A stretch of 64,000 nt of DNA. Origin: Ostreococcus lucimarinus (taxonomy: Eukaryota). This document shows, piece by piece, positions 1-59,989 of the stretch. The stretch lies in NCBI GenBank assembly GCA_000092065.1, contig CP000594.1. One strand, 5' to 3'. The notes below the pieces were generated by a model. It was not told where the DNA came from. It was given only the letters and a program-made list of their open reading frames with translations, and searched no databases. Positions within the stretch are counted from its first letter, which is position 1. Every line of letters starts with the position of its first letter. The translations under genes were made by a program, and so were the position numbers.

Positions 1-270
1 TTTCGTCCACGCGGCGTCCACTCGCGAACGCGCGGATACCGTTCGCTCTCTCAGCGCCCTCCACGTCCGATCGGTTCGGAAGTGACGCGCGCGCGCAGAA
101 TAGTTTCGCGTCACAACGCAATTATTCATTCCCGTGTTGATTTTATTCTATTCCAGGGGGTATGGGTATAGAGTTTACAGTGCCTTCGTACGAGATATTT
201 CCCAACACCCTTTAGTACCAAAACCTAATTGCGTATCTTCCCTCACTTTCCGACGTCACGCGCGCACGCG

Positions 271-3200
271 ATGACGTCGGCGACGCCGAAACGACGGCGC
301 GCGCGCAGATTTTTGTATGCGTTCGGAGGACCGACACTCTTATTTAACCTCATGCGCGTGTTTGCCATGTCCGGGCTCGTGGCAACAATTACAATGTCAA
401 CAGCCGCGGGCGCCGCCCACGGTGGAGGTGCGAGCATGGACGAGGGACCGGCGCAAATGCATTATATGCCTGATCGATTTCGCAGCCTCGCGGGCGGCGG
501 CTGGCTTACTATCTCATCGAGAGACGTGCACAAGAGCCTGATGCCCATGCCTGGGATGCGCGGTGGCGGGGAAGGCGCGAATGAGTCAGCAGTAAGTGGC
601 AGCGCGATGAAGGACGAGGTGAAGATCGATCTGGCCCACGGTGACCCAGACGGTGAGCGATCGTGCGATCTCGTGCATTACAAGTCATCCTCGAATGAGT
701 TGGTGTGTTCACCACGTGCGGTGGATTGCTGTTTGGACGGACTCACGGCGCAGGAGCTCGCCAGCGTAAGCGATGGGTGCCCGTCGGTGAGACCAGAGCT
801 GAACGTCGAGGTCAACGGTCAGCGATTGACGTGGGGCAGCGCTGGTAGAAATGGAAGGGACACGCTCACGGACGAAAGTCTCAAAGTGAGCCATGGGCAG
901 ACGCCGACGATCGTGGCGGTCGAGCCGGCTGAGGTTCGTCCCGGTGAGTTGATCACGGTGTACGGACGAACGTGCTTTGGCGATGTTTGGAAGAAAGATG
1001 AAGATGATGGTTCGTCTCTACGTGATGATCCCGACGCACTGCGAGATCTATTCTCGGTTGAAGCGAGCGCAAGAGAGGATCCGCGCCAAGAAATTGGATT
1101 GGAAAAGTCTCTCTACAAGGTGCTCATCGGTGACCTACCGTGCGAGGTTCGAGATCCACTCACAAACAGGTACTACCGATCCGAGCGCGGCGATGGTCCA
1201 TACACAGCCCACCGGCAAACAGAGTGTGGACCCGTTAACGGTTGGTTTCAGTGCCGTGTACCCCAAGACATCGATTCCGGTCTTCATCTACTTCATTACG
1301 AGACGTACACCAGAGGCAATGCTGTGATCCTGTCTGAGGCGCTCAGATGGAATGCATCGGACGCGTCCAAGGGCTACGTGCTGTCAGTGGTTGATGATAA
1401 GTCGGAAGATGAAGATCCACCGCGTGTTTATAACATAACGCAGCTCTCGAAGGATGAGTCCAAACAGCGACTCCTTGTTGAGGGTGCGTCTCTTGATGCG
1501 CCAAATATCGTCGTCGAGCTTGACGGGGAGCGCTGTGGTGGAAAAAAGGTTGTGTCCAGATCTGGCATCGAGGTTGAATGCTCAGGTTCAGCTGGAGCGA
1601 GCTCGCAGTATCACTACGGCCCCCCCGCGTGGCTGCGTGAAGACTGGGTGTTCAAGGACAAGAATAATAAGTTTGTCGGTGGCAAAGCGTGGTCTAACGC
1701 TCTCCACGTTTTGAAGCAGCGTGGAGAAAGGTACAACCCTCTCGCCGACGAAGTCATGGACGCTTTAAGCTCGGCATTGGCAACGAATGGCATTGTCCGC
1801 GGGTACAAGATCGAGAAAGTTCAACAGTATCTCACGAGCCCATCGGTTGGATCACCATATGTTGAGGCAACTAGCGGCATGAAAGCGGCGCACGCCGGAC
1901 TCATCCGTCACCGAAGGATACGGAATGCTGTGTTTGAACGTGTAAGCGGAGTCATCACCGCCAAAGCAAACGGGCGAATGCGCGTGGCGATCGCCAATGC
2001 GGCGGGCAATAACATGGTGCTTCGTGTGCGACATGTTTCCGACAACTTAAATGTATTCAAACCTTGGTTGTTAGTTTCCAAATTTTGCGGCACCAGATAC
2101 AGCAGACAAAACATTTATCGATACGGCTTTTCACAGTGGTTCAGTGTTCGTGGTAACGAAAAATACTATATGGAATTTCTGATGAACTTGGACCCCAGAT
2201 ACTTGCACAATTTCGGGGGATTCGATGTTAAGATGGAATTTTCCTACGACGCGGGTAATCCTGCGGGATCAATTGGGCAACTTACGCACACGACAACGCC
2301 TCACGTGCCCAAACGAGCGCATGGTGGCGATTACGTCGTGCGCTTTAGCGGCGCTTCGAAAACTGCGATCAGATTCGCTCATAATGCAACTTCTTCAAGA
2401 AGCAATTTTGAGTGGAAACTCTTCAGTGGCGGCAAGACCATCGAGTTCAATACGAAGAATTGGTTGCATGCACGCGAACACGTGCGGAAAGTTAGAGACG
2501 CTCTGCGATGGGCTAACTGTACCGCGCTGCCTGAAGACTCAAAGATGTGGGACGCGGACTCGACCCATTCTTCGCACCCATTCGACGTCGAGAATCGATG
2601 GCTCATGGTGCGTGATACGCAGACCTTCAAAGAGCCCACCACAGATTGGAACTTCATATGGCAACGTCGCATGGGCGGATTCAGAGGCGCGTCGATCGAC
2701 TGGAGTACCTCGTACTGTTCGACACACAGTCAAAAATTTGATTTGTCGTCACTACCCCCAGGAAGAGTCATCACTCCTTCTTCTCATTTCGACGTACCTG
2801 CATCTTCTCGTGCGACGACGAATAAGTTTCTGAACTTTGCCTACAAAGTCACTCCGGGTACGCGAGCGACCTTGTTACTTCGTCTAAAGTACCGAAGCGG
2901 TAATCGGGACATATCGACCACGTGCGCGGTTCTCCTCACCCATGAACAAGCGACTGGGAACGTGAAGAACTTCGATCACCCAGCGTGTGTGGACCTTCGA
3001 AGCGTCTTCAAGGATGATGGAGAGTGGCACTTTATTTCATTCGATTGGCGAACTGCGTTGGCCGGTGGTGAGTATGCCCCGAGTTATTTGGGCGAGGCTA
3101 TGTTCCCGCATAAAGTGCAAGTTCAACTCGATGGTATCGGTGTCGGCGCGCAGAGATTCCTCGGCAAGTGTCCGAATAAACAGCGCTTAGCGGAAATGTA

Positions 3201-6200
3201 TGTCGGTGATGAAGGAAGTGAACTGCGCGGTTACCTCTGGTTGGATAGCGTTTCTGTGACACAGGAACGCTACTCTCCTCAACGAGTCGAGACGCCCTCT
3301 GCACAGCTCGGAGGTATGCAAGAAGGCGTTCACGCAATCACAGATATTGAATATTCGGTCATCAGCCGAAGCGATGGCTCTAAGTGCAAATCGCTGTCGG
3401 ACTGTGATATCATCGTGAGCCTGCGTCAGGTGAAGAGATGCATTGATGCGCAGTCGCGAGGCGATTTCAATATTTCGCCGATGGTGATGTCACAGACGAG
3501 TCCAAACCCGCAACCCGCGACGGTCTCGTGTGGTCGTCACTATGCAGCGAACTGCTCGACTTGTCCGTGGAAGGTGTCCGCGGAAGGTGTCCGTGGAAGG
3601 TGGATGGGCTGGAAATATTGCAATGGTGCGTGCGAATGGAGATGGCACGGGCGTATCAATGCAGGTGGCACGTGCGTGTCAAAGCCAGCTCCAACTCCTC
3701 CGGCAATAACAGTCACGGATCGTACTTCTTCAACACGTGGAACCGTCACTGCACAGATCACAGGGGGGACGATGACGCAATTTTCCACCTCTGCCAATTC
3801 ATCTGAAGTGCAGGACGCATTACGTCATGTCCTCGGAGCGCACGACGGAGGCTTCGTGGTGAGTCCAAGCATGGATTTGTTTGATGCGTGCGGTGTGAGC
3901 GCTCATCGCATGCGCGTTGCGCATGCGAGCGATCTCGAATCGATCCAAGCGCGGTACAAAGAAGTCGTCAATGGTGTGCCCCTGGGAATGCTACCGAAAT
4001 CTTCCCGAGGCCGCACTGCGGAAAATGACGCAGGTCTCCTTAATATAACTGTGAATGTCTCAGGCGGCCTCGCTGAGATAGTCGCGACAGACGAGTCGAG
4101 CGATTTCATCGGTATGGTGCCCCTGGACACGAGAACAGATCTCGATGTGCGCGCCTTGATTCGCGGTGGCGACGCCGTGTTGGCGACGGCTGTTGTGACG
4201 GATGGCGACACAGTCGTACCATGTTCTGTCTCACCTGACCGTATGTCTGCGACTGGCTTCAAACAAGTTCCGAACGGGCAGGCATTCGTTGGCGATGCTT
4301 CTTGCCACATCATTGTGCCACACGAGGAAGTTGCATCTGACGCGACCGTGCACGCTCCGACGGAGTTGAATCAGGATGGTTTTCCCTCACTCGGTGAGTC
4401 CGTGAGTCAATCGAGTCCGACAGACCAGAAACGTCGACGGGACGTCGAAACTATCCGTCGGCGCAGCATGTCAAACTCGCTAAAATTTCCTGGCCATGAT
4501 ACCTGGGCAAAACGAGATCTATCGATGAGTAGATCCGATCTTGGACGATTAACAGTCACAGTGGTTGGTTTTGGTGCGCGTGTGCACAACGGCGCCGCGC
4601 ACCGTAGAGCTGCGAATCACGCGCGGAAACTGTTGAAAACGGAACTCGTCGCGAAGGATGCAGGTCAGGGGAGTCTCAACAATACGAAAAGCAAGTATGA
4701 ATTTCCGGCGGGCGCGGGTCGATTCAGTGATCCATCGACGTGGGGTCCTCGGGGAGTGCCGGACCAAAACTCGACGGATATGCTCTTTATTCCTGCCGGT
4801 TTCAATCTTACTCTGGATGTCGCCGATACGTACTTCCGCGTGTGGGTGATTGAGGGGCACCTAAATTTCCAACGGGGCATGAACATCACGATGCAAGCAG
4901 AAATGATCGTCATCAACGGCGACGACGCACACTTTAGCATTGGGAGTGAAACACGTCCCTTTGAAGATCAGGCGAATATCATCATGCACGGTCACTGGCG
5001 ATCCCTCGGCTTGCCCAAATATGGGGTGAAGTGCATCTCACTGACGAGCGGACGATTAACATTCTATGGTCAGCACGTCACGCCTTGGATGGAACTGGCC
5101 ACTACGGCTTCAGCTAACGCAAACGTTATTTCCGTCAGAAGCAAGGAAGGCAAGACTCCAGATCTCGCCGGATGGAAACCGGGTGCGAGTATTGTGGTGA
5201 CGTCAACCTCTTACGGGGACAGGAGATGTCGGCAAAACCGTACAGACGACTGTCAACCCGAGGAGCGCGTTATTGAATCTGTCACTCCTAGAGGCAACTT
5301 TGCGGACATAACTCTCGATCGACCGTTGAAGTATGAACATTTGGGTGAATCCGTGAATGTGGCGGGAAGCCCCCGCGGGGCTACGATTGAGCGTCGTGCT
5401 GAAGTAATGCTTCTCACGAGAAATATCAACGTGCGCGGCACGACTGAACACAATGGGTATAAGCTCGTCGGCTTTGGCGCGCACACTATGATGATGTCTG
5501 GTCAAATGGTGTTGAAAAATGTTGAATTCGGCCCAAACGTCGGACAGGCCTTCCAACTGGGTCGGTATGCCATCCACTACCACACGCCCAATGAAAAGAT
5601 GTTCAAATATGGTTTGACAGCCTCAAATGACCCGAGGATGCAGGGCGCAGACCAGCGCTTGAGTCGTGTGGAGGGAGTCTCGGTCCACCAATCAAACAAC
5701 CGTGCGATCGCGGTGCATGGTTGTTATCGACTGAACATCATTAACAACGTCGCGTACAACATCTTGGGACATGGGATGTTCGTTGAAGATGGTGTGGAAA
5801 TGTGGAACCTCTTCAAGGACAACGTTGTTTCTCTAGTGCATCGCTCTTTCTCTCTTTTGAACACTGATCAAACACCTGCAGCGTTTTGGATATCGAACGC
5901 TAACAATTTCTTCATCGGTAATCGAGTGTCATCGAGTAATCATCATGGATATTGGTTTGACCCACCAGGAGGACCTACCGGACCGTCGTCGCGAACGCTC
6001 ACGGGGCCTTTGGAAATCCAAAAATTAAGCACTCGGAAGGTACCGCTCGGCCAGTTTGAAAATAACAGAGCCCACTCGAATGGCCACTCCGGACTTTGGA
6101 TTGATCAAATAAACACGGTCTTGCAGCAAGGCGGCAGGCTCAGAATGTACATGGTCGGTACCCACGTATGGAACAATGGAATCAACGGTTTCGGAATGAT

Positions 6201-9200
6201 TACCGGCGTTGGGCATCTACAGATTGTGAATACGTTTGCCATGGGCAACGGGATTGACATCATGTATATCAAGTCGACTGGTGCGACGTGGGCGATGCCG
6301 ACGAATGGTTGGTCCGGTAACTTGGTGTACAACGCCACCCTTCGCGGTGACCCGAAACGCAATACCCAGGCAATCGGCTGTCCGCACGGCGGATGGGTAA
6401 CATTTAACGATATCCTCATTAGTGGCTATCAAAGTAGGTTGCCCCCAATACACCACTGCGCTGTGTGTCCGGGTTTCAAAGGCGGCATGGAAGTTCGTTT
6501 CATGAATATGAAATTCGTCGACAGTGATACAAGGCGGCTCCGCGGTGGTTCAACATCTCGACCGCGCGTATTCTGGAACGGGTACAACTCCAACCTTTTG
6601 CTCGACGTGGATGGGACCCTGAGTGGATCGCCAGGTCCACGATGGGCGCATTCAGTCAAGGGCGCCAGTGATGATCCCAGGAACCGGCCGACGGGTCATT
6701 TTCCGCCAGAACACTGCACCCTCAATGATCACATCGGAGGTGTTGTTTGCGACGCCAACACTGTGTCGTTGCGAGAGGTGCAGTGGCGCCGTATCAAGCC
6801 CATGACCCTTATACCCATGGCGATGCAGACAGCACCTGATCAAAATGCAGGGCAAGTGAACTTTTATCATTACGACCATATCGAGCGACGTTTCAATTGG
6901 CGTACGACATTGGTTATGGTTAAAAGTCCGAACGCGAAGCCATACATCCATAACTTTACGTTTAAGTTTAAAACATGGCAAATTGATGACCCGGACGCTT
7001 GGTACATGGAGGTCCGTGAGCTTCAGCCCAATGAATGGGCTATAATGCGATTCCCCACACTCCGCAATCCGTGGCGTTGGAACTTGAATTCAAGAATACC
7101 GACGGTCACATTGAATAACTACAATCAAAGTGATTATAGTTTCAATGAGAGCAAGGCCATCACCACCACGAGCAACGAATGGCTGAGTTGGAAAAATCAC
7201 AAGTTCGGCGACCACACATACCTACCCGTTGTGGAGACAAGGGATGTTAATGTAAAGCCAGATCCAGGGCTGCTCGATATCATGATATCTGGCAAGCGCG
7301 AACAAGGATGGACACAATCGTACGCCCTCGGTGCCAACTATGATGGCGCGCGTGAAGATATGCCCGTCTGCACCACTTCATGCGGAAGCTCGGCAAAGTC
7401 AACATGTGGCATGAAACGCTACAACTGCAGACCGGGCGACAAGAAACGATGTTTGCCGATGGAAAAGCCTGCAAACTGCTTCGACAATCGACCTATACCC
7501 GAGGTAGATCCCGAGCCTAAAACTTTTTCCTGGTGCGACTCAAACGAAGTTTGGTCTCCGCCGGCATTCGGGGATGACGTCATGATCAAGGCTGGTTGGA
7601 CGGTCATCTTAGATGAAACCTGTCTGGTGACCAACATAACTAGACACGTGGATTTATATGGGTCCCTGTTGCTTCGTGATCCAGGCGCTGGTAAAACCAT
7701 CAAGTTCCGAGCGCAGACCATCCACGTCGCGGCTGGGATTGGATACCTCGAAGCTGGTGACCAGGATGATCCGATATCGAATGGCGACGTTCGTATCGAG
7801 CTTTATGGGAACAGATTTTCTAACGCTCGAATGGGCTACGGTATGGAGACAAAGTACATCGCCGTTCTCGGACACCTCAGCCTCGTCGGAAAGGCGAGCG
7901 TGGAGCAAACGTGGTCGACGCTTAGAAGCGATGCGCCCGCGGGAAGCAGTACAATTGAAACGACAGCCTGTGGCGGTTGGAATACTGGCGACACGCTCAT
8001 GATTGGTGGCGCTATGCACAATTGGACCGGGATCAAGCATGCTTGGTTTTTGAGCGCGGAGCGCTGTGATATTTCCTCCATAGCAGTTGCGAGCGAAGGT
8101 TGCGTCATACGGTGTACTTCCAGCTTCAACTACACGCACTCAGGCCCGGCCCAAAAGCACGAGGTCAGTTTTGGTGGAATGCCAGTGACTCTCATGCATA
8201 GGCGCTCTCCAGGTGGGCGCGTGCAGGTAGTTGGCATGGAAGACAAAAACAAGGCACTGGCAGAGCAGCACTATGGTGCTGTTATTACTATCCTGAAACC
8301 GAAAAAGAAAGGCTATGACGCAAAATTGGCTAAGAGATTCAAGATAGAACTCAAGACGCCCGAGCGCATGCAAGCGGCAACTGAAAGCATGAAACATGAT
8401 CCCCCGCCTGAATGCCACCGCAGACAAGGTTCGGCTGTGATCGTCAATGTCAACTTTGCGCATTGCGGTCAGCGGCACTCTAGTCGCGCGTGTGTTTCTT
8501 TTGCCGCCGGTATTGGCGCTGAGTATCGAGCTACGTTCGCAGAAACGACATCGATGGCACTCGTTGCGAACAACACATTTGCGGACGCCTACAATTTTGC
8601 CGTGAGCGCAGCAGGAGATGGAATTATTATAGAGAATAACGCCATCGCACAAACCTATCACGGTGGATTCGAGGTCTCTGGTGCGAACAACACAATGTCT
8701 AATAACGCAGCTGTTCGATTATTCGACGATGTTAGTGATTACTTTCACGACATTGGGTCGGTTGGTTTCAAGTTGTCGGGATCAGGGAAATGGTATACTA
8801 ACGTCGTCGCCTCCGTGCAGTACACTGGGTTTAAAATTCCTGGATATCCGTGCGAAATGATGACTCCAGACGTGGAGGATGAGGGTTTAGACGTTCGCGC
8901 TGTGACCACCGTTCCCGCCGAACCTACAATGCGTGACCTTCGCGCGTATGGTGGCATGGTAGGCGTGAATCTGCGGGGCGGGCGTACTCGGATGGTCACA
9001 CGTGAACCGGTGGAGGCCTACGCGCCGCTCGAGTGTCGCCAATGGAGCGACTTCGAGATTCGTTCAATGGTTTGGTACGGCGTAACCACGTTTGGTCAGG
9101 GAAAAACGTCTATTGTGTTGAAAAACTTTAATATTTGGGACACCGGACTTGGTTTCGCGCTGTGGATGGTCAACGGTGGCTCAGCCGCAGGTTCGAGCAG

Positions 9201-10095
9201 CGAGCGAGGGCATTTCGCAGAAATCAGTGACACGACGATAATCGGTTCTGCAAGTCGATGTAGAAACGACGGCATTGGGTTTCCCGCGTTTTACTTAACG
9301 GCAGAACCGTACCGGCCGGATCAAGGAGTGAAAACGCCATCGCGCTTTGGTGGAACGACGCTAAGAAACATAAGGTTTCGCGATTTCGGCGCATGTGAAA
9401 AGAAAGGCGTTCGTCAAGTTCGTCAAAAGAATTACGCATTGGTGAACGCCATGAACCGTGGGCGATACGCGTGGGTTTACTACGACAACGCGAACCCCGT
9501 GCGATCTTCTGGCTTGAGCTTTAAGGGTGTACCATTCGAAAACAGGTTACTCATGATCCATCCAAGCTGGGGTCGAATAGGCAATGGGAAATGGGGCTGT
9601 GCCCAAATGTACTGCGACGGACATCGCAACACGTTTGTGATGGATGAGGACGGTTCGCTGCTCGGTGATAACGCCGCATTCGGGACCATCTTGCCCGAAA
9701 ACGAGATTGGTTGGTTCAAGAAACTGGCCTATATCGATCCGCTCAGCCGTGACATTCTTGAAGATTTGGTTCCATTCACACACCAGTGGCTGCCCAACGG
9801 TACCAAACTGACGCCCATGCGAGGGAAGCTCTACGACGAGCCAGGCCATCTCAAAATGGGCTGTCGAAAGGAGGCTTCATGGCAGGCGTGGCTCTGTCCC
9901 GAACACAGGCACAGGCAAATAATCCACGAAAGTTTGGACGGCGATCACACGAAGAGGCGCATCTCCCCAACTTCTGTTCTCACAGAGCTACCATCTCAGA
10001 GCAAGCGTTTCATGTCTCTGTACACTGGGCCTGCGAAATACGGAGGAAACTCCTCGACCGAGGGCAATAACATCCAAGCGCTCGATCGAGGCTAG
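271..10095 (+). CDS. Giant secreted/membrane protein (about 3275 aa) with a G8 domain and multiple right-handed parallel beta-helix (PbH1) repeats; fibrocystin-L/PKHD1L1-like architecture. N-terminal hydrophobic segment suggests a signal/anchor
   Basis: Single 9.8-kb ORF; first in-frame ATG at 271 (track start 229 is TTG). Region IPAGFNLTLDV...GHLNFQRG...GRLTFYG matches the G8 domain pattern; downstream repeats such as NNRAIAVHGCYRLNIINNVAYNILGHGMFVEDG are PbH1-like; N-terminal blocks resemble IPT/TIG. Codon usage and GC are clearly lower than in neighbouring genes. Confidence 0.55.
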   Translation: MTSATPKRRRARRFLYAFGGPTLLFNLMRVFAMSGLVATITMSTAAGAAHGGGASMDEGPAQMHYMPDRFRSLAGGGWLTISSRDVHKSLMPMPGMRGGGEGANESAVSGSAMKDEVKIDLAHGDPDGERSCDLVHYKSSSNELVCSPRAVDCCLDGLTAQELASVSDGCPSVRPELNVEVNGQRLTWGSAGRNGRDTLTDESLKVSHGQTPTIVAVEPAEVRPGELITVYGRTCFGDVWKKDEDDGSSLRDDPDALRDLFSVEASAREDPRQEIGLEKSLYKVLIGDLPCEVRDPLTNRYYRSERGDGPYTAHRQTECGPVNGWFQCRVPQDIDSGLHLLHYETYTRGNAVILSEALRWNASDASKGYVLSVVDDKSEDEDPPRVYNITQLSKDESKQRLLVEGASLDAPNIVVELDGERCGGKKVVSRSGIEVECSGSAGASSQYHYGPPAWLREDWVFKDKNNKFVGGKAWSNALHVLKQRGERYNPLADEVMDALSSALATNGIVRGYKIEKVQQYLTSPSVGSPYVEATSGMKAAHAGLIRHRRIRNAVFERVSGVITAKANGRMRVAIANAAGNNMVLRVRHVSDNLNVFKPWLLVSKFCGTRYSRQNIYRYGFSQWFSVRGNEKYYMEFLMNLDPRYLHNFGGFDVKMEFSYDAGNPAGSIGQLTHTTTPHVPKRAHGGDYVVRFSGASKTAIRFAHNATSSRSNFEWKLFSGGKTIEFNTKNWLHAREHVRKVRDALRWANCTALPEDSKMWDADSTHSSHPFDVENRWLMVRDTQTFKEPTTDWNFIWQRRMGGFRGASIDWSTSYCSTHSQKFDLSSLPPGRVITPSSHFDVPASSRATTNKFLNFAYKVTPGTRATLLLRLKYRSGNRDISTTCAVLLTHEQATGNVKNFDHPACVDLRSVFKDDGEWHFISFDWRTALAGGEYAPSYLGEAMFPHKVQVQLDGIGVGAQRFLGKCPNKQRLAEMYVGDEGSELRGYLWLDSVSVTQERYSPQRVETPSAQLGGMQEGVHAITDIEYSVISRSDGSKCKSLSDCDIIVSLRQVKRCIDAQSRGDFNISPMVMSQTSPNPQPATVSCGRHYAANCSTCPWKVSAEGVRGRWMGWKYCNGACEWRWHGRINAGGTCVSKPAPTPPAITVTDRTSSTRGTVTAQITGGTMTQFSTSANSSEVQDALRHVLGAHDGGFVVSPSMDLFDACGVSAHRMRVAHASDLESIQARYKEVVNGVPLGMLPKSSRGRTAENDAGLLNITVNVSGGLAEIVATDESSDFIGMVPLDTRTDLDVRALIRGGDAVLATAVVTDGDTVVPCSVSPDRMSATGFKQVPNGQAFVGDASCHIIVPHEEVASDATVHAPTELNQDGFPSLGESVSQSSPTDQKRRRDVETIRRRSMSNSLKFPGHDTWAKRDLSMSRSDLGRLTVTVVGFGARVHNGAAHRRAANHARKLLKTELVAKDAGQGSLNNTKSKYEFPAGAGRFSDPSTWGPRGVPDQNSTDMLFIPAGFNLTLDVADTYFRVWVIEGHLNFQRGMNITMQAEMIVINGDDAHFSIGSETRPFEDQANIIMHGHWRSLGLPKYGVKCISLTSGRLTFYGQHVTPWMELATTASANANVISVRSKEGKTPDLAGWKPGASIVVTSTSYGDRRCRQNRTDDCQPEERVIESVTPRGNFADITLDRPLKYEHLGESVNVAGSPRGATIERRAEVMLLTRNINVRGTTEHNGYKLVGFGAHTMMMSGQMVLKNVEFGPNVGQAFQLGRYAIHYHTPNEKMFKYGLTASNDPRMQGADQRLSRVEGVSVHQSNNRAIAVHGCYRLNIINNVAYNILGHGMFVEDGVEMWNLFKDNVVSLVHRSFSLLNTDQTPAAFWISNANNFFIGNRVSSSNHHGYWFDPPGGPTGPSSRTLTGPLEIQKLSTRKVPLGQFENNRAHSNGHSGLWIDQINTVLQQGGRLRMYMVGTHVWNNGINGFGMITGVGHLQIVNTFAMGNGIDIMYIKSTGATWAMPTNGWSGNLVYNATLRGDPKRNTQAIGCPHGGWVTFNDILISGYQSRLPPIHHCAVCPGFKGGMEVRFMNMKFVDSDTRRLRGGSTSRPRVFWNGYNSNLLLDVDGTLSGSPGPRWAHSVKGASDDPRNRPTGHFPPEHCTLNDHIGGVVCDANTVSLREVQWRRIKPMTLIPMAMQTAPDQNAGQVNFYHYDHIERRFNWRTTLVMVKSPNAKPYIHNFTFKFKTWQIDDPDAWYMEVRELQPNEWAIMRFPTLRNPWRWNLNSRIPTVTLNNYNQSDYSFNESKAITTTSNEWLSWKNHKFGDHTYLPVVETRDVNVKPDPGLLDIMISGKREQGWTQSYALGANYDGAREDMPVCTTSCGSSAKSTCGMKRYNCRPGDKKRCLPMEKPANCFDNRPIPEVDPEPKTFSWCDSNEVWSPPAFGDDVMIKAGWTVILDETCLVTNITRHVDLYGSLLLRDPGAGKTIKFRAQTIHVAAGIGYLEAGDQDDPISNGDVRIELYGNRFSNARMGYGMETKYIAVLGHLSLVGKASVEQTWSTLRSDAPAGSSTIETTACGGWNTGDTLMIGGAMHNWTGIKHAWFLSAERCDISSIAVASEGCVIRCTSSFNYTHSGPAQKHEVSFGGMPVTLMHRRSPGGRVQVVGMEDKNKALAEQHYGAVITILKPKKKGYDAKLAKRFKIELKTPERMQAATESMKHDPPPECHRRQGSAVIVNVNFAHCGQRHSSRACVSFAAGIGAEYRATFAETTSMALVANNTFADAYNFAVSAAGDGIIIENNAIAQTYHGGFEVSGANNTMSNNAAVRLFDDVSDYFHDIGSVGFKLSGSGKWYTNVVASVQYTGFKIPGYPCEMMTPDVEDEGLDVRAVTTVPAEPTMRDLRAYGGMVGVNLRGGRTRMVTREPVEAYAPLECRQWSDFEIRSMVWYGVTTFGQGKTSIVLKNFNIWDTGLGFALWMVNGGSAAGSSSERGHFAEISDTTIIGSASRCRNDGIGFPAFYLTAEPYRPDQGVKTPSRFGGTTLRNIRFRDFGACEKKGVRQVRQKNYALVNAMNRGRYAWVYYDNANPVRSSGLSFKGVPFENRLLMIHPSWGRIGNGKWGCAQMYCDGHRNTFVMDEDGSLLGDNAAFGTILPENEIGWFKKLAYIDPLSRDILEDLVPFTHQWLPNGTKLTPMRGKLYDEPGHLKMGCRKEASWQAWLCPEHRHRQIIHESLDGDHTKRRISPTSVLTELPSQSKRFMSLYTGPAKYGGNSSTEGNNIQALDRG

Positions 10096-11349
10096 GAGCT
10101 CGAGCGCTTGTTCCACCGCGGCGTCTCCGATGGCGTGCACGGCGATCTGAAGACCCGCTGCGTCCGCGAGAGTGGCTTGCTTGCGCAAAATTTTCTCTCT
10201 TTTACCTCTGGGGTACATCAAATGTCCAGACGTCGACCCGTCGTCTAGATACGGCGCCATCATCGCCGCGGTTCGCCCGCCCAAGCTACCGTCGAGAAAC
10301 GCCTTGACGCCGCCCAATCGAACCCGAGAAGCCGCGGTCTCATTCTCTCGCGTCCAACCACTGTTCCACGCGACGTGGGATTGAACGCTTGCCCAGTCCC
10401 CGAGTGGCATGTACGACGTGATGCGAATCGGAAGGTCGCCGACCGCGTCCCATCGCTCGAGCGTCTCAAAATCTTCCCAGAGCTGCGCGTATCCATCCGC
10501 GCCCGCCACCAAGCTCTCGATGTCCCCGAAATCACCCACGGTCGTGATTCCTTTACTGAGTAAGTACTCAAACGCCCGTTTAAACGCTTCATCGCGCTCG
10601 CTCCGCGACCGCTTCGGCACCGCGTTCGACATCGCCGCCGTGGCCAACTCCTTTAGAATCCCAGTCGGCGCCCCCTCGTCGTCCAACTCCACGATCCCAC
10701 CCGCGATCACCGTCTTCGCGCCCGTGATCTTCGCGATTTCCAACGCCGCCTCGCTCGCGAATCCGACGTGTCCGCACGTCCGCGTGACCCACACCTTCGC
10801 TCCGACGAATCGTTCGTCGCCGCGCGTCCACGCGTTCGACGGCGTCTCGCCGCCCCACGACGTCTCGTCCCAACCGTGTCCCAGCACCCATTTTTCCTTC
10901 CCAGCGTCGATCGCTCGCGCGAGGGTCTCTATGAACTCTTCTTTGGACCGCACGCCTCGCAGATCGAGCGCGTCGAGCGCGAATCCGCCCGTGACGACGT
11001 GCGCGTGCGCGTCGACGAAGCCGCTTCGCAGCGCGCGCCCGCCGCAGTCCAACACGACGCCGAATCTCGTCGACGGAACGTCTTCGACGGCGATGATTCG
11101 CCCGTGTCGGGATACCGTGATGTCTTTGATCGCGCCCGCGTCGCCGACGGCGCAGTTCGCGAACGTGGTGACGTCGGCGTCGCGTTCGGCGTCGGTCGAG
11201 TGATGACGCGCGCGAGCTGGACCGGTGGTTTTAGCGCCGTAGCCGAGCGGGCAGGCGGAGAATCGAGCCTCGAACGCGGGCCAGGCGATCGCGAGGAGTG
11301 CGCTCGCGATTGCGAGGGCGAACGCGACGTCGCGGGGGGTCCATCGCAT
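9988..11349 (-). CDS. Metal-dependent amidohydrolase-family protein (Amidohydro_3-like), N-terminal signal/TM; appears C-terminally truncated
   Basis: FVDAHAHV metal-binding motif near N-terminus, HAIGDAAVEQALE motif near the end; expected C-terminal roughly 100-150 aa of the fold are absent. ORF 3' end overlaps the 3' end of the giant + strand gene by 108 nt. Confidence 0.55.
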   Translation of the reverse strand: MRWTPRDVAFALAIASALLAIAWPAFEARFSACPLGYGAKTTGPARARHHSTDAERDADVTTFANCAVGDAGAIKDITVSRHGRIIAVEDVPSTRFGVVLDCGGRALRSGFVDAHAHVVTGGFALDALDLRGVRSKEEFIETLARAIDAGKEKWVLGHGWDETSWGGETPSNAWTRGDERFVGAKVWVTRTCGHVGFASEAALEIAKITGAKTVIAGGIVELDDEGAPTGILKELATAAMSNAVPKRSRSERDEAFKRAFEYLLSKGITTVGDFGDIESLVAGADGYAQLWEDFETLERWDAVGDLPIRITSYMPLGDWASVQSHVAWNSGWTRENETAASRVRLGGVKAFLDGSLGGRTAAMMAPYLDDGSTSGHLMYPRGKREKILRKQATLADAAGLQIAVHAIGDAAVEQALELLASIERLDVIALGRGVSSVFRRPSVQRHETLALRW

Positions 11350-18994: not shown

Positions 18995-19735
18995 CTACGC
19001 CGAGAACAACTCCTCCAAAGTCATGTCCCGCATCTTGGCCACTTCCTTGAACGTTCGCATCTCGTTCAACCCCGCAACGACCGCCCGCGCATTATTCAAC
19101 GGGTTCGAGCTTCCGAGCTGTTTCGCGAAGCAATTCTTATAGCCCGCCAGCTCCAAAACCGTGCGGCACGCGCCCCCCGCGATGACCCCCGTCCCCGGGC
19201 TCGCCGGGCGCAGCATCACCACCGCGCCGCCCTTCCCCTTCACCGTCACTCGATGCGGGAACGTGTCCCCTTTAGTTATCGGCGCTCGCTTCGCGCTCTT
19301 TCGCGCATCGCTCGCCGCCTTCGTCACCGCGATTTGCACCTCCTTCGCCTTCTGGCACCCGACGCCAACCAAACCCTTGCCGTCGCCCACGACCACGGTG
19401 GCGCGGAAGCTCATCTGCGACCCGCCCTTGGTGATTTTCGTGACGCGCGACACCTGGACGACGGACTCTTGCATCCCGTCGTCCTCCTTGCCGCCGCGAC
19501 CGCGGCCTCGGCCGCCGCGACCACCGCGTCCGCCGCCGCGCCCGCCGCGCGCGCGCGGGGTCTCGGACTCGCCTTCGACTGCCGACGCGTCTGCGTCGTC
19601 GCCGGCGCGCGCGACCGTCGCCGTGCGCCGCGGGGCGACGGCGACAATTTTATCGCATCGGTTCGCGCGGCTCGGGAGGCGCGCGGACGCCGCGCGAGAC
19701 GCGGGCGCGGCGGTGAGGGCGATGGAGGCCATCAT
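18995..19735 (-). CDS. RPS5: Plastid 30S ribosomal protein S5 (uS5c) precursor with transit peptide and RGG-rich linker
   Basis: S5 N- and C-terminal domains ([46 protein letters not shown]...[22 protein letters not shown]) preceded by an Ala/Ser/Arg-rich presequence and GGRGG repeats. Confidence 0.85.
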
Positions 19736-21519: not shown

Positions 21520-21885
21520 ATGCGCGCGAGGCGAACGGGCGCGGCGGCGGCGAACGAGGACGACGCGCGATTGGCCAAGTATCTCGTCGTGAACGCGGAA
21601 AACGTCGCGCACAACGCGCGAGTGAGCGCGCGAGTGTTCACGTACCTGAGCATCGTGTCCGGAATCGCGATCGGCGCGCTCGGATACACCGGAGTGCGAG
21701 GGTTCGCGGCGCACGGGGTGTTTATGCTGGCGAGCGCGTGCGCGGTGGCGGCGAGCAAGTGCGAGGGACGACCGACGAGTTTCTTTCCGTCCGTCGATAA
21801 GGTGTTCCTGGACGGACCGAACGCTGGATTGCCGACGTTTGTGTTGTTTTGGACGCTGTCGTATAATTGCTGGCACTTGTTTTAG
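21520..21885 (+). CDS. EMC6: ER membrane protein complex subunit 6 (EMC6, Rab5ip family)
   Basis: Two TM segments and C-terminal PTFVLFWTLSYNCWHLF aligning to human EMC6 FTYVLFWTFLYGMVHVY; central GIAIGALGYTGVRGF matches ATAGILGLTGLYGF. Confidence 0.7.
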   Translation: MRARRTGAAAANEDDARLAKYLVVNAENVAHNARVSARVFTYLSIVSGIAIGALGYTGVRGFAAHGVFMLASACAVAASKCEGRPTSFFPSVDKVFLDGPNAGLPTFVLFWTLSYNCWHLF

Positions 21886-21905: not shown

Positions 21906-24035
21906 ATGAACACGGCGGCGCTGGTGAAGCGACAGCGGCGACCGGTGACGTATTCGCTTCCGCAGCCCGAGTACGCGAACAAGCACGTCGGTGGGGTGAA
22001 CGCGGTGGACTTGGGAGGAGAGGGATCCGATAGCATATTCACCGGTGGGCGCGATGGGACGGTTCGGATGTGGGATCTGTCGGCGGGGATGCCAGCGTGC
22101 GCGCGGCGGTTTGAAGGTCACGGCGGGTGGGTGAACGACGTCGCGAGAGTGTCGAGCACACATTTGGCGAGCGCTTCTAGCGATCACACCGTGCGGCTGT
22201 GGGATATAAGTGAAGGATCGATGTCGTCGTCTTGCGCGGTGGCTTTGCAGGGACACACAGATTACGTCATGGCGTTGGCGTGCGCGTCGGAACGCTTGGA
22301 AGGAAAGTTTGCTTCGGGCGGGCTCAATCGCGAGATTTTCTTGTGGGACATCGAGCGATGTCTCGCGATCAATGCCGCGCCGTCGTATCTAAGCGTGAAG
22401 AATGATGGATGCGTCACCGCGCTGGGGGGCTCGAAGGAGTCCATCTACGCTTTGGGTATGGATGGGACTGGAAACTTGCTCGTCTCCGGCGGTACCGAGC
22501 TCGCGCTTCGCGTGTGGGACACGCGGAGCGCTCAAAAGGAAGGCAAACTCAAGGGACACACAGACAATGTTCGAGCAATCGTCGTCGACACGGATGGTAA
22601 AAAGTGCGTCACAGCGTCGAGCGATAGAACGATTCGTGTTTGGGACATTGGCGAGCAGCGATGCGTGCAGACGTTTGCGGGCATGCACACCGGGTCAATT
22701 TGGGCGCTCGCGTGCAACCGCGATTTCACTCGTGTATACTCGGGAGGTATCGATGCCCGGATATGCGTCACGTCGTTGCGTGATAGGAAAAGTAGTTTAG
22801 TCGCGAACGAATCGGCGGCTATTTTAAAGCTGCGCCTAGACGAGTCAACGCGCGCGAGCGGTTTCGCCGCGCACTCGTCGGACGGCGACTTGTGGACCGC
22901 CACTGCGTCGCGGTCGATCAAGCGCTGGCCGACGATCATCCCGGGCGAAGATGGCTCATCAGCGAACGTAGAAGACTCTCATGGAACGCCGACGAGCACC
23001 TCGTTCTCGCGTCGCGCCGCTGGATCGAGTCTTTTGCGGCAGCCGGGAACGTGGTTCGACGTCGGTTCGCCCGGGGCATTTTCGTTCGGCGGCACGACGC
23101 CGCGAAAGTTCGATAACTGGGGCGATCCGCACGATCGTGAGCCCCAGGACTTAGTGCCGTCGATGGAGATTATCGGTGTGAGCCCGATCGTTCGTCACAG
23201 CGTGCTGAAGAACAAGATGGAGGTGTTGACGCAAGACTCCATGGGTGCCATCGCGCTGTGGGACGTGTCGCGATCGACCCCAATACGCACGTTCGACGGC
23301 GTCACCGATGGATCAGACTTCGAAATTTTACTCGAAAATGAAAGTTTGAATCCAGATGTCGTCGTTCCATCGTGGTTTACCTGCAACACTCGTAGTGGTT
23401 CGCTCGCCATCACGCTCTCGCCAAGTTCGGCGTTCAACGCCGAGGCGTACGCGAGCGATCTGGGTATCGCTGACGCCGCGCCGGACGAGCGAAGAAATTT
23501 AGGTGTCGAAATCATTCGACTATTGATGGATGAGTGGGTAGAAAAATTTACGTCGTCGAAACCTCCGCGATCAACGAAACGGGCGTTCGCCGAGCCGCTC
23601 CCGAGCGAGTGTGCGGTTTCGTTCGCGCACCCCATCGACGACAGCGGTCGCGTGTGCGTCAAGATTCGCGAAGACTTCTCGGGCACACCCACCGAGCGTG
23701 AGTTGCTTCCCAAATGGTTCGCCGATCACGCCCTGAATCAAGCGCCCGAGCCGGAATCTCCAAAGATCAGTTTCCGCCTCGCCCCTCGCGCAGGCTCGGG
23801 TCTCGCTGAAATTTCCCCCGCGAGCGTCTCGGCGCCCAAGATTCTCGGCGCTCAGAAGATTCGCGAATACATCGCACAGAAGTTAGACGAAACAGATGGC
23901 GGAACGAGCACCGATGCCAGCGCGCTCGCGCTCTGGTGCGCCGGCCAACCCGTGCCGTCGTCGGCCACGCTCGCCGCCGCGCTCGCGCGCGTCTGGAAAA
24001 AATCGCCCCCGATCGAGCTCGAGTACTCCAACTAG
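21906..24035 (+). CDS. WDR48: WD40-repeat protein WDR48/UAF1 orthologue (deubiquitinase-activating factor)
   Basis: Block-by-block match to human WDR48: GVNAVDL, FTGGRDGTVRMW, HGGWVNDV, ASASSDHTVRLW, HTDYVMALA, LNREIFLWD, KESIYALGM, VSGGTELALRVWDTR, KLKGHTDNVRAIVV, SSDRTIRVWDIGEQRC, FTRVYSGGID, SWFTCNTRSGSLAITL. Confidence 0.85.
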   Translation: MNTAALVKRQRRPVTYSLPQPEYANKHVGGVNAVDLGGEGSDSIFTGGRDGTVRMWDLSAGMPACARRFEGHGGWVNDVARVSSTHLASASSDHTVRLWDISEGSMSSSCAVALQGHTDYVMALACASERLEGKFASGGLNREIFLWDIERCLAINAAPSYLSVKNDGCVTALGGSKESIYALGMDGTGNLLVSGGTELALRVWDTRSAQKEGKLKGHTDNVRAIVVDTDGKKCVTASSDRTIRVWDIGEQRCVQTFAGMHTGSIWALACNRDFTRVYSGGIDARICVTSLRDRKSSLVANESAAILKLRLDESTRASGFAAHSSDGDLWTATASRSIKRWPTIIPGEDGSSANVEDSHGTPTSTSFSRRAAGSSLLRQPGTWFDVGSPGAFSFGGTTPRKFDNWGDPHDREPQDLVPSMEIIGVSPIVRHSVLKNKMEVLTQDSMGAIALWDVSRSTPIRTFDGVTDGSDFEILLENESLNPDVVVPSWFTCNTRSGSLAITLSPSSAFNAEAYASDLGIADAAPDERRNLGVEIIRLLMDEWVEKFTSSKPPRSTKRAFAEPLPSECAVSFAHPIDDSGRVCVKIREDFSGTPTERELLPKWFADHALNQAPEPESPKISFRLAPRAGSGLAEISPASVSAPKILGAQKIREYIAQKLDETDGGTSTDASALALWCAGQPVPSSATLAAALARVWKKSPPIELEYSN

Positions 24036-24089: not shown

Positions 24090-24171
24090 CGCATTCGGCA
24101 GGATTTGAACCTACGCACGGAGACCGTATTCGATTTCTAGTCGAACCCCTTAACCACTCGGGCACGAATGC
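24090..24171 (-). tRNA. tRNA-Ser (anticodon AGA), class II with long variable arm
   Basis: Minus-strand sequence GCATTCG TG CCCGAGTGGTTAAGGGG TTCGA CTAGAAA TCGAA TACGGTCTCCGTGC GTAGG TTCAAAT CCTGC CGAATGC G folds as a cloverleaf (7-bp acceptor, 5-bp anticodon stem with AGA, T-loop TTCAAAT) and matches eukaryotic tRNA-Ser-AGA almost throughout. Coordinates derived from the overlapping ORF frame; +/-2 nt. Confidence 0.85.
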
Positions 24172-57416: not shown

Positions 57417-57758
57417 CTGCGAGCGCGAAAACGTCCCGCGTCCAGCGCGAGCGCGTGATTTAAATCGTCAGTCCACACTCTGCGCGCTCGCACGCCCGCG
57501 CGCGCGTCGCGCGCGCGCTCGTTCGCGCCCGCGCGCGCGGTGCCGAAAAACCCTCGAGCGCGCCACCGCGCGGACATCGATGCGCCCCACGTCGCCGCGC
57601 CGCGCGCGCGCGCGATCGCACGCGTTCGAAACGAAGCATACGAATCATCCGCATCGAACGACGCGATCGACGCCGTCTCGACGGCGTCGACGCGTCGGTC
57701 GCGGCGCGATGATCGTCGCGCGATCGAGAAAGCCCTAAACGCGATGCCGAAGACGTAC
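57417..57758 (-). other. RPL5 intron (342 nt), GTACGT donor ... CAG acceptor
   Basis: Joins exon 1 (...KFARRRA + G) to exon 2 (GC AAG ACG...), giving FARRRAGKTDYYARQRL, compared with human FRRRREGKTDYYARKRL. Confidence 0.85.
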
Positions 57759-59541: not shown

Positions 59542-59552
59542 ATGCCGACGAG
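59542..59552 (+). CDS. RPL27A: 60S ribosomal protein L27a (uL15), 11-nt exon 1 (ATG CCG ACG AG)
   Basis: ATGCCGACGAG|GTGCGG; spliced product [29 protein letters not shown] matches human [29 protein letters not shown]. Confidence 0.7.
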
Positions 59553-59989
59553 GTGCGGGCGATGAAACGGCGAGCGATGCGATGCGTTCGATCGGGCGCG
59601 ACGTCGCGGCGCGCGCGCGGTCGCGCGCGCGACGGGAGGGGCGAACGCGGCGTGGACGCGATGGCGAGCCCTAGCGATCGGTGTGCGGCGTGGACGCGCC
59701 CGGGCGAGCGGCGCGAACGCGCGCGGGCGCTCGCGCGCGCGCGGTTGGGCGTGCGGGATTGCGATGCGTCGTTTCGAGGCGCGCGCGGGCGGGCGTGCGG
59801 GGGAGACGCGCGCGTTCGACGCGCGCGTTCGGCGCGTTCGGAGGCTTTAGGGTTTTTAGGAGGACTCGACGCGGGACGCGTCGCGGAGCGCGCGGCGCGG
59901 TGGTTCGCGCGATGGCGCGAGAGCGATGGAAAAACTTCGGAGAATCGTCGACTGACCGAGGACGTGTGTTTGTTTGCGCGCGCGATTAG
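59553..59989 (+). other. RPL27a intron (437 nt), GTGCGG donor ... TAG acceptor
   Basis: Only AG upstream of the conserved exon-2 start; phase works (AG + G = Arg). Confidence 0.65.

What the first reader, a model, noticed from the sequence alone, without database searches (positions are those of the whole stretch)
229..10095. Compositionally atypical 10-kb gene for a 3288-aa G8/PbH1 (fibrocystin-L-like) protein
This single giant ORF has markedly lower GC and different codon usage (frequent AAA, GAT, TTT, AAT codons) from the GCG-rich genes that start immediately downstream. Its architecture (IPT-like, G8, many PbH1 beta-helix repeats, signal anchor) is that of PKHD1/PKHD1L1/CEMIP-type extracellular proteins. 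Low-GC islands in prasinophyte genomes are associated with outlier chromosomes or foreign or fast-evolving DNA, so this could be a horizontally acquired or lineage-specific surface protein.
Basis: partly seen in the sequence, partly recalled or inferred. Interest (0 to 1): 0.5.

Follow-up and report, generated by a model that had tools for sequence, protein, structure and literature searches.

The report
Truncated giant G8 surface-protein gene
The ORF is the first 83% of a conserved giant fibrocystin-L-like surface-protein gene of the green picoalga Ostreococcus lucimarinus; its low GC is that of a larger low-GC island, and the sharp GC step at its end is a structural junction that cuts the gene short.

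Summary
The ORF (229-10095, +) and its G8/beta-helix content are real, and its GC (0.529; GC3s 0.545, Nc 56.6) is well below that of 18 downstream genes (GC3s 0.746 +/- 0.069). The source is Ostreococcus lucimarinus CCE9901, where the gene is already annotated (XP_001421255, 'G8 domain-containing protein').

Three points change the reading.

1. The ORF is not a whole gene. Wild same-species contigs (99.94-99.98% identical) and sister-species contigs encode 3,892-3,965 aa, ending in a Pro-rich stalk and a C-terminal membrane anchor. All lose homology to the window at exactly 10051. After 29 nt of unmatched filler, the window enters an unrelated normal-GC locus at 10081, inside a minus-strand amidohydrolase gene that is also 3'-truncated.

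2. In wild O. lucimarinus the gene lies in a low-GC region of at least 29.6 kb (GC 0.52). There its GC3 is typical (z = -0.74). Its neighbours are unknown or virus/mobile-like genes.

3. The gene is not recent HGT and is not fast-evolving. dN/dS is 0.25-0.27, and a collinear 39%-identity homologue exists in another eukaryote.

I could not decide whether the junction is a real strain rearrangement or an assembly error. Overall this is an ordinary family member in a locally interesting genomic context.

The parts
229..10095 (+).
   Evidence: translation
271..10051 (+). Native part of the G8 gene: codons 1-3260 of about 3,917. The NCBI model XP_001421255 starts at 271.
   Evidence: Homology to L001, L002, L016 and L018-L023 ends at exactly 10051. 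P0278 is 100% identical to 271-9768.
334..405 (+). N-terminal hydrophobic stretch (aa 22-45) after a basic n-region; a putative signal peptide or anchor, conserved in sister-species P0291
   Evidence: Hydropathy; this is an inference, not a dedicated predictor
1420..1590 (+). IPT/TIG-like segment, by transfer from a homologue only
   Evidence: P0315 has a TIG hit at aa 367-416 (E 1.8e-5) that aligns to this segment. There is no Pfam hit in the window protein itself.
4738..5100 (+). G8 domain 1 (aa 1490-1610)
   Evidence: PF10162, E 6.5e-45, profile positions 1-124 of 124
5470..6234 (+). Parallel beta-helix 1: CEMIP_beta-hel at aa 1734-1942 and Beta_helix at aa 1799-1988
   Evidence: PDB 8c6i (TMEM2) matches aa 1606-1948, E 4e-25
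7555..7923 (+). G8 domain 2 (aa 2429-2551)
   Evidence: PF10162, E 2.9e-19
8542..8712 (+). Weak second beta-helix signal (aa 2758-2814), below the Pfam cut-off
   Evidence: PF13229, 20.8 bits against a 25.9-bit cut-off
9769..9844 (+). 'Intron' in the NCBI gene model; probably an annotation artefact that gives the model a stop at 9920-9922
   Evidence: P0278 aa 3167-3191 map to 9845-9919 in another frame. The orthologues read straight through.
10052..10080 (.). 29-nt filler at the junction, matching neither locus
   Evidence: Alignment. It is unique in the window, absent from JGI metagenome contigs, and shares no 7-mer or longer with +/-400 nt of either native breakpoint.
10081..11349 (-). 3'-truncated Amidohydro_3 (YtcJ/LAF3-like) gene: aa 1-423 of 598
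   Evidence: Pfam profile positions 2-296 of 472 only. P0011 aa 1-423 map here. L003-L007 carry the full gene and lose homology to the window at 10081.
9988..10080 (-). Read-through tail of the chimeric minus-strand ORF, running through the filler and antisense G8 sequence to the first stop

Best explanation
Shown: the window comes from Ostreococcus lucimarinus CCE9901. Positions 271-10051 are the first 3,260 of about 3,917 codons of a conserved single-copy-type gene for a giant type-I membrane protein. The full protein consists of:
- a signal peptide;
- about 1,440 aa of beta-rich, Pfam-less sequence with one TIG-like segment;
- two G8 plus parallel-beta-helix modules;
- and, in the full-length allele only, a Cys-rich region, a 12-aa Pro-rich repeat stalk, a basic coiled-coil-like segment, one transmembrane helix and a roughly 20-aa tail.

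Shown: its low GC and almost unbiased codon usage are those of the region it belongs to. In wild O. lucimarinus the gene lies in at least 29.6 kb of GC ~0.52 DNA and is compositionally typical there. The window shows only the last 10 kb of that island. At 10051 the sequence switches, through 29 nt of filler, into an unrelated normal-GC locus. It enters that locus inside a convergent amidohydrolase gene, so both genes lose their 3' ends.

Inferred: the full-length protein is a cell-surface glycan-binding or glycan-processing protein. The beta-helix of this family is the fold of polysaccharide-degrading enzymes. The copy in this window lacks its membrane anchor, so it is either a disrupted gene or an assembly artefact.

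Inferred: the low GC3 is maintained by residence in a low-GC, outlier-like region and by weak selection for the G/C-ending optimal codons. It does not indicate recent foreign origin.
For: Identity of the source:
- P0278 (XP_001421255, CCE9901) is 100% identical to the window.

Truncation:
- P0001, P0269, P0270, P0273, P0277 and P0282 (3,892-3,917 aa, up to 99.94% aa identity) all read through residue 3260 to '...LLRNRRRF'. So do more than 10 partial environmental proteins. None carries the junction tail.
- DNA homology of ten independent contigs stops at 10051. These are sister-species L001 and L016 and same-species L002 and L018, L020-L023.
- DNA homology of five further contigs (L003-L007) starts at 10081.
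- The missing C-terminal 670 aa are nowhere in the window.
- The transmembrane helix is at P0001 aa 3847-3870.

Island:
- L020 has GC 0.47-0.59 per kb over 29.6 kb.
- G8 GC3 is 0.558, against 0.593 +/- 0.047 in its native neighbours.

Conservation:
- dN/dS is 0.25-0.27 and dS 0.17-0.18 against the sister species, similar to the neighbouring genes.
- P0315 is collinear over 3,170 aa.
- 3,569 HMMER hits, many of them 2,000-6,600-aa proteins including animal fibrocystin-L.

Codon bias: in O. tauri, bias rises with expression and nearly all optimal codons end in G or C (PMC3673656).

Fold and function lead: in TMEM2 the G8 domain is part of a beta-helix typical of polysaccharide-degrading enzymes (PMC10206443).
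Against: - In the sister species, the same gene and its divergent Cys-rich partner keep low GC3 (0.545 and 0.579) although they are flanked by normal-GC housekeeping genes. Part of the low GC therefore travels with the gene and is not purely regional.
- I could not read the CCE9901 sequence upstream of window position 1. I also could not place the island on a named chromosome.
- The function is inferred from family and fold only. Even for TMEM2, catalytic activity is disputed (PMC10206443 vs PMC10474455).
- Signal peptide and transmembrane calls rest on hydropathy alone.
Confidence: 0.75

Rival explanations
1. The junction at 10051/10081 is a real structural change in strain CCE9901: a duplication, insertion or translocation of a normal-GC block into the G8 gene, repaired by end-joining with filler DNA. 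It disrupts this G8 copy.
For: - A 29-nt untemplated filler is typical of end-joining, and not of assembler joins at shared repeats.
- The CCE9901 annotation holds an amidohydrolase model (P0303). Its first 324 aa are 100% identical to window 11052-10081, but its last 161 aa (the native C-terminus) are absent from the window.
- The identical uS5c protein has two CCE9901 accession numbers. Together these two points suggest a second copy of this block in the genome.
- Low-GC outlier DNA of cultured O. tauri undergoes duplications, deletions and possible translocations (PMC5082852).
Against: - No other assembly in the collections carries the chimeric ORFs or the filler.
- All wild sequences are intact.
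- I could not inspect the rest of the chromosome or any reads.
Confidence: 0.45
2. The junction is an assembly or finishing artefact in the 2007 Sanger reference, for example a chimeric clone used for gap closure. In that case the strain has an intact 3,917-aa gene.
For: - Two genes are cut mid-ORF and abutted tail to tail.
- The duplicated block is 100% identical at protein level, as expected if the same sequence was placed twice.
- Every independent same-species contig disagrees with the join.
- The annotators could not model a proper 3' end.
Against: - The genome was finished to chromosome level.
- More than 54 kb of normal-GC sequence follows the junction, which is longer than one fosmid insert.
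- Filler DNA is not the usual mark of a mis-join.
Confidence: 0.45
3. One reading: the gene is a recently acquired foreign (HGT) or lineage-specific, fast-evolving gene, and its low GC is un-ameliorated donor composition.
For: - GC3 is 0.2 below that of the window neighbours.
- The native island carries virus/mobile-like genes, one with a 71%-identical relative on a viral contig.
- The two-gene block (Cys-rich gene plus G8) sits in different contexts in the two species. In O. lucimarinus it is flanked by short repeats.
Against: - The orthologue in the sister species has the same low GC3 and is under purifying selection.
- A collinear full-length homologue exists in another eukaryote.
- The nearest named relatives are eukaryotic G8 and fibrocystin-L proteins.
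- No close relative of the G8 region was found in IMG/VR.
- Within the island the gene's composition is typical.
Confidence: 0.08
4. The low GC3 is intrinsic to the gene and does not depend on where it lies. The causes would be extreme length and low expression, giving no selection for G/C-ending optimal codons and little GC-biased conversion in a 12-kb gene interior.
For: - Nc is 56.6, nearly unbiased.
- Among the 18 neighbours, GC3s falls with log length (r = -0.50, p = 0.03). Extrapolation to 3,917 codons predicts 0.567, against 0.545 observed.
- GC3 falls from 0.62 in the first 900 nt to about 0.55 afterwards.
- Low GC3 persists among normal-GC flanks in the sister species.
- Codon bias correlates with expression in O. 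tauri.
Against: - The extrapolation goes far outside the data (95% prediction interval 0.36-0.78).
- Short native neighbours in L020 are just as GC-poor, so length cannot be the whole story.
- No expression data were examined.
Confidence: 0.3

Closest known systems
Fibrocystin-L (PKHD1L1) / fibrocystin (PKHD1), animal giant type-I membrane proteins
   Same: - Giant size.
- N-terminal signal sequence.
- Two G8 domains, each followed by parallel beta-helix repeats.
- A single C-terminal transmembrane helix with a short tail in the full-length allele.
- Animal fibrocystin-L proteins are the best named hits (E 1e-72 to 1e-56, 24-28% identity over 21-55% of the query).
   Different: - There is no array of IPT/TIG domains and no Pfam PA14 domain. 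The 1,440-aa N-terminal region has no Pfam match, and only one TIG-like segment is inferred through a homologue.
- The C-terminal Cys-rich, Pro-rich-repeat and basic coiled-coil region has no counterpart that I tested.
- The organism has no cilia.
- The window copy lacks the anchor.
CEMIP (KIAA1199) / TMEM2 (CEMIP2), PDB 8c6i
   Same: The G8 plus CEMIP-type beta-helix core matches. PF24606 gives E 2e-43, and phmmer to 8c6i gives E 4e-25 over about 340 aa. In this fold the G8 domain is part of the beta-helix, and the fold is typical of polysaccharide-degrading enzymes (PMC10206443).
   Different: - Two modules are present instead of one.
- No GG or lectin-like domains were detected.
- Membrane topology differs: TMEM2 is type II.
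- The protein is much larger.
- Hyaluronan is not known from Ostreococcus (my own knowledge).
Low-GC outlier regions of Mamiellales (small outlier chromosome, SOC; BOC1 region of the big outlier chromosome)
   Same: - The native region has GC 0.52, like the O. lucimarinus SOC at 53% (PMC3491373).
- Colinearity with the sister species is lost outside two genes.
- Many neighbouring genes are unknown or of possibly foreign origin.
- The region is involved in a structural rearrangement, as outlier DNA is in O. tauri (PMC5082852).
   Different: - The reference record is 708,927 bp, not the 149-kb SOC.
- No glycosyltransferase or methyltransferase cluster was seen in the 29.6 kb read.
- Membership of chromosome 2 (BOC1) could not be checked.
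- The extent of the island beyond 29.6 kb is unknown.

Membership tests
G8 domain proteins (PF10162) | Full-length match to the G8 profile above the gathering score | tested here: met
   Two copies were found. The whole-protein score is 152.5 bits against a cut-off of 22.9, with profile positions 1-124 of 124 matched. The second copy scores 69.6 bits.
CEMIP/TMEM2-type beta-helix proteins | CEMIP beta-helix (PF24606) directly after the G8 domain, with sequence similarity to a solved member | tested here: met
   PF24606 scores 149 bits against a cut-off of 27.3, with profile positions 1-212 of 212 matched. PDB 8c6i matches at E 4e-25.
CEMIP/TMEM2-type beta-helix proteins | Single G8/beta-helix module with inserted lectin-like (GG) domains | tested here: not met
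   Two G8 modules are present, and Pfam reports no GG or lectin-like domain.
Fibrocystin / fibrocystin-L (PKHD1, PKHD1L1) | Two G8 domains, each followed by PbH1/beta-helix repeats | tested here: met
   G8 domains lie at aa 1490-1610 and aa 2429-2551. The first beta-helix is strong; the second is weak, at 20.8 bits and below the cut-off.
Fibrocystin / fibrocystin-L (PKHD1, PKHD1L1) | Long N-terminal array of IPT/TIG domains | tested here: not met
   There is no TIG hit in aa 1-1480 at E<=1. A single TIG hit appears in the homologue P0315 at the aligned position. An AlphaFold2 model of aa 480-1010 was unusable, with pLDDT 35.
Fibrocystin / fibrocystin-L (PKHD1, PKHD1L1) | C-terminal single transmembrane helix and short cytoplasmic tail | tested here: not met
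   The helix is absent from the window ORF. It is present in the full-length wild alleles (P0001 aa 3847-3870, by hydropathy) and in P0291 and P0316; P0315 ends in a terminal hydrophobic segment with no tail.
Mamiellales small outlier chromosome (SOC) | Whole small chromosome (about 149 kb in O. lucimarinus) of about 53% GC | tested here: not met
   The GC matches, at 0.52. However, the CCE9901 record that carries the gene is 708,927 bp, against 149 kb for chromosome 18 (PMC3491373).
Mamiellales outlier-type low-GC region (generic) | Extended low GC, loss of colinearity with relatives, many unknown or foreign-looking genes | tested here: met
   The low-GC tract is at least 29.6 kb. Only the Cys-rich gene and G8 are shared with the sister species. 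Four of the 8 neighbours have no Pfam match; the others include S74-chaperone, GIY-YIG/zf-CCHC and Prim-Pol proteins.
Mamiellales big outlier chromosome region BOC1 (chromosome 2) | Location on chromosome 2, with many small introns and housekeeping genes | not testable with these tools
   The reference chromosome could not be fetched. The neighbours are not housekeeping genes.
Horizontally acquired gene | Absent from relatives, or nested in a foreign clade; composition differs from the native surroundings | tested here: not met
   Orthologues and a collinear distant homologue exist. The composition equals that of the native flanks. No close viral relative was found. A formal phylogeny was not made.

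The most novel reading that the evidence does not exclude
The G8 gene and its divergent Cys-rich partner form a relocatable two-gene cassette, bounded in O. lucimarinus by short palindromic repeats. The cassette lies in an outlier-like, virus-gene-rich low-GC island on an ordinary chromosome. Under this reading the CCE9901 junction is a real culture-era rearrangement of that island, comparable to the SOC rearrangements linked to virus resistance in O. tauri. It removed the membrane anchor of a giant surface glycan-binding protein that acts in prasinovirus adsorption or defence.
Probability: 0.1. Interest if true: 0.7.

Novelty: new member of a known kind. Interest (0 to 1): 0.3.

Why it matters
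The gene itself is an ordinary member of the G8/beta-helix family and is already auto-annotated.

Three practical points follow:
- The reference protein XP_001421255 / A4S7D5 (3,191 aa) is a truncated and mis-modelled version of a protein of about 3,917 aa. It should not be used as the species' sequence.
- The O. lucimarinus CCE9901 reference contains a non-native junction, and probably a duplicated block, that needs checking.
- O. lucimarinus seems to carry an outlier-like low-GC island outside the two known outlier chromosomes. It has virus-related neighbours and a giant surface protein. This island is a candidate locus for host-virus interaction studies.

Tried and rejected
- Exact-protein look-ups of the window's G8 ORF (from ATG 271 and from 394), the NADK gene, the kinase gene and the chimeric 453-aa minus-strand ORF all returned 'not on record'. 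There is therefore no independent confirmation of the junction.
- The 29-nt filler is unique in the window and absent from JGI metagenome contigs. It shares no 7-mer or longer with +/-400 nt of either native breakpoint. An apparent 11/12 similarity to the adjacent amidohydrolase sequence is not convincing, so a templated origin is rejected.
- I considered a simple tandem duplication, running from inside the amidohydrolase gene to inside G8. The window holds no second G8 or its upstream genes up to 64 kb. A 249-kb wild contig spans -115 to +133 kb around the amidohydrolase, while G8 in the same sample is on a separate contig. This evidence is weak, so the model is neither proven nor excluded.
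- I tried reasoning from the order of GenBank accession numbers (ABO99548, 99695, 99699, 99730). It was internally inconsistent and I dropped it.
- An AlphaFold2 model of aa 480-1010, built on a 3-sequence alignment, gave mean pLDDT 35 and was unusable. No fold search was run.
- IMG/VR scans found nothing for the G8 region or for Prim-Pol.
- Literature searches for a described duplication or misassembly in O. lucimarinus, or for G8/fibrocystin in Ostreococcus, found nothing relevant. Palenik et al. 2007 is not held.
- Intergenic GC in the normal-GC part is about 0.64. The G8 GC3 is therefore not simply the local neutral level of that flank.


Full report
**Observation**

The ORF 229-10095 (+) exists. 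Its first ATG is at 271. Pfam finds two G8 domains, a CEMIP-type beta-helix and a Beta_helix match. The best solved relative is the TMEM2 ectodomain 8c6i.

The ORF has GC 0.529, against 0.636 for the rest of the window. Its GC3s is 0.545, against 0.746 +/- 0.069 in 18 downstream genes (z = -2.9). Its Nc is 56.6, against 28-53. GC1+2 is unremarkable. The observation therefore stands.

**Source**

Cluster look-ups identify the organism as Ostreococcus lucimarinus CCE9901. The NCBI model XP_001421255 (UniProt A4S7D5, 'G8 domain-containing protein', 3,191 aa, on a 708,927-bp record) is 100% identical to window 271-9768 plus 9845-9919. The model invents a 76-nt intron and ends in another frame.

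**The ORF is not the whole gene**

Environmental proteins up to 99.94% identical to the window, and sister-species orthologues at about 91% identity, are 3,892-3,965 aa long. After residue 3260 they continue for about 650-700 aa: a Cys-rich region, a 12-aa Pro-rich tandem repeat, a basic coiled-coil-like stretch, one transmembrane helix and a short tail ending '...LLRNRRRF'. That C-terminal part is nowhere in the 64-kb window.

At DNA level, ten independent contigs lose homology to the window at exactly 10051. These are sister-species L001 and L016, and same-species L002 and L018, L020-L023 at 98.6-99.98% identity. Five other contigs (L003-L007, at 91.5-99.8%) begin to match at exactly 10081.

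Those five contigs carry a full 585-598-aa Amidohydro_3 gene. The window keeps only its first 423 codons on the minus strand, matching Pfam profile positions 2-296 of 472. The 29 nt in between match nothing.

**Real or artefact?**

The CCE9901 annotation includes an amidohydrolase model (P0303). Its first 324 aa equal window 11052-10081, but its last 161 aa, the native C-terminus, are not in the window. The identical uS5c protein also has two CCE9901 accession numbers. The reference therefore seems to hold a second copy of at least part of the normal-GC block.

Filler DNA and the known plasticity of outlier DNA in cultured O. tauri (PMC5082852) favour a real rearrangement. Several points favour an assembly error:
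- The duplicated block is perfectly identical at protein level.
- Every wild contig disagrees with the join.
- No independent assembly holds the chimeric ORFs.

I cannot decide between the two with these tools.

**Composition in the native context**

In the sister species the gene is flanked by normal-GC housekeeping genes. It has the lowest GC3 of 13 genes (0.545, z = -2.0), and its divergent Cys-rich partner has the next lowest.

In wild O. lucimarinus the picture is different. The 29.6 kb read from a 51.9-kb contig (L020) is low-GC throughout, at 0.47-0.59 per kb, with flanks at 0.519. The G8 GC3 (0.558) is typical of its eight neighbours (0.593 +/- 0.047, z = -0.74). Window position 1 corresponds to L020 position 9650, so the window shows only the tail of this island.

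The neighbours are:
- an 835-aa protein with a Peptidase_S74 chaperone domain, which has a 71%-identical relative on a 196-kb IMG/VR contig (the 6.8-kb stretch read has GC 0.45);
- a pepsin-like fragment;
- a GIY-YIG/zf-CCHC protein;
- a Prim-Pol protein;
- four proteins with no Pfam match.

Only the Cys-rich gene plus G8 are homologous between the two species, and the homology ends at the two stop codons. In O. lucimarinus this pair is bracketed by short palindromic repeats that are absent from the window and from the sister loci.

**Not foreign, not fast-evolving**

Against the sister species, dN/dS is 0.25-0.27 and dS 0.17-0.18, within the range of the neighbouring genes. A 4,370-aa EukProt protein is collinear with the gene over 3,170 aa at 39% identity, including the Pfam-less N-terminal region. 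An exhaustive HMMER search gives 3,569 hits, 426 of them below 1e-30. Named hits include animal fibrocystin-L and a labyrinthulomycete G8 protein. No close relative of the G8 region exists in IMG/VR.

Weak codon bias fits what is known for Ostreococcus: bias rises with expression, and the optimal codons are nearly all G/C-ending (PMC3673656). It also fits a negative GC3-length trend among the window's own genes.

**Function (inferred)**

The architecture is a signal sequence, a huge ectodomain with two G8/beta-helix modules, and a C-terminal anchor. This is the fibrocystin-L layout, and two more distant homologues also carry a C-terminal hydrophobic anchor; one of them has a classical signal peptide.

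In TMEM2 the G8 domain is part of a beta-helix typical of polysaccharide-degrading enzymes, though its activity is disputed (PMC10206443, PMC10474455). The most likely role is a surface glycan-binding or glycan-processing protein. The window copy would lack its anchor.

**Verdict**

This is a known kind of gene, already auto-annotated. The HGT reading is not supported, and the low-GC-island association is supported. New here are the truncating junction in the reference and the outlier-like island with virus-related neighbours. Both are of local interest to Mamiellales genomics.

Noticed in passing
L020:6994-7826 and L020:21780-23316 (outside the window; same-species contig): The Cys-rich + G8 gene pair is bracketed by nested short repeats. 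An inner palindrome (7511-7569 / 7781-7821) has a copy at 21803-21882, 49 nt after the G8 stop. An outer hairpin (6994-7087) has a copy at 23256-23316. The repeats are absent from the window and from the sister-species loci. They may be remnants of a mobile cassette.
   Followed up: partly
L020:287-2794 (7 kb upstream of window position 1 in wild contigs); L025: An 835-aa neighbour with a Peptidase_S74 (endosialidase chaperone) domain has a 71%-identical relative (aa 598-812) on a 196-kb IMG/VR contig; the 6.8-kb stretch of it that was read has GC 0.45. This hints at virus-host gene exchange in the island. The viral nature of that contig was not verified.
   Followed up: partly
L001:15148-15538 (sister species), corresponding to window ~5621/5623: Some sister-lineage alleles (P0002, P0290, P0296) carry an in-frame insertion of about 120-130 aa inside the first beta-helix. 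It is absent from the window, from P0001 and from P0294.
   Followed up: no
window 18995-19735 (-): This is the plastid ribosomal protein uS5c. The identical 159-aa product has two separate CCE9901 accession numbers (ABO99699, ABO99730), which suggests a duplicated block in the reference genome.
   Followed up: partly
window 10081-64000: GC is a mosaic of 0.53-0.77 at 1-kb scale. GC3s of 18 genes ranges from 0.65 to 0.86 and falls with log gene length (r = -0.50, p = 0.03). High GC generates many long spurious overlapping ORFs.
   Followed up: partly
window 24090-24171 (-): tRNA-Ser (anticodon AGA) is the only RNA gene found by ARAGORN and Rfam.
   Followed up: yes
window 59182-59639 and 57644-57713: These are imperfect palindrome-like self-matches: 488 nt at 69% identity, and 72 nt at 83%. 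The first lies in the long ORF upstream of a Ribosomal_L27A domain and may be GC-rich low-complexity or intron sequence.
   Followed up: no
window 3562-3682: Two short tandem repeats (13-nt and 23-nt units, 2-3 copies) lie inside the G8 coding region and are probably incidental. In the full-length allele the Pro-rich stalk is a 36-nt tandem repeat (L020:20931-21209) whose copy number varies between alleles of 3,892-3,917 aa.
   Followed up: no
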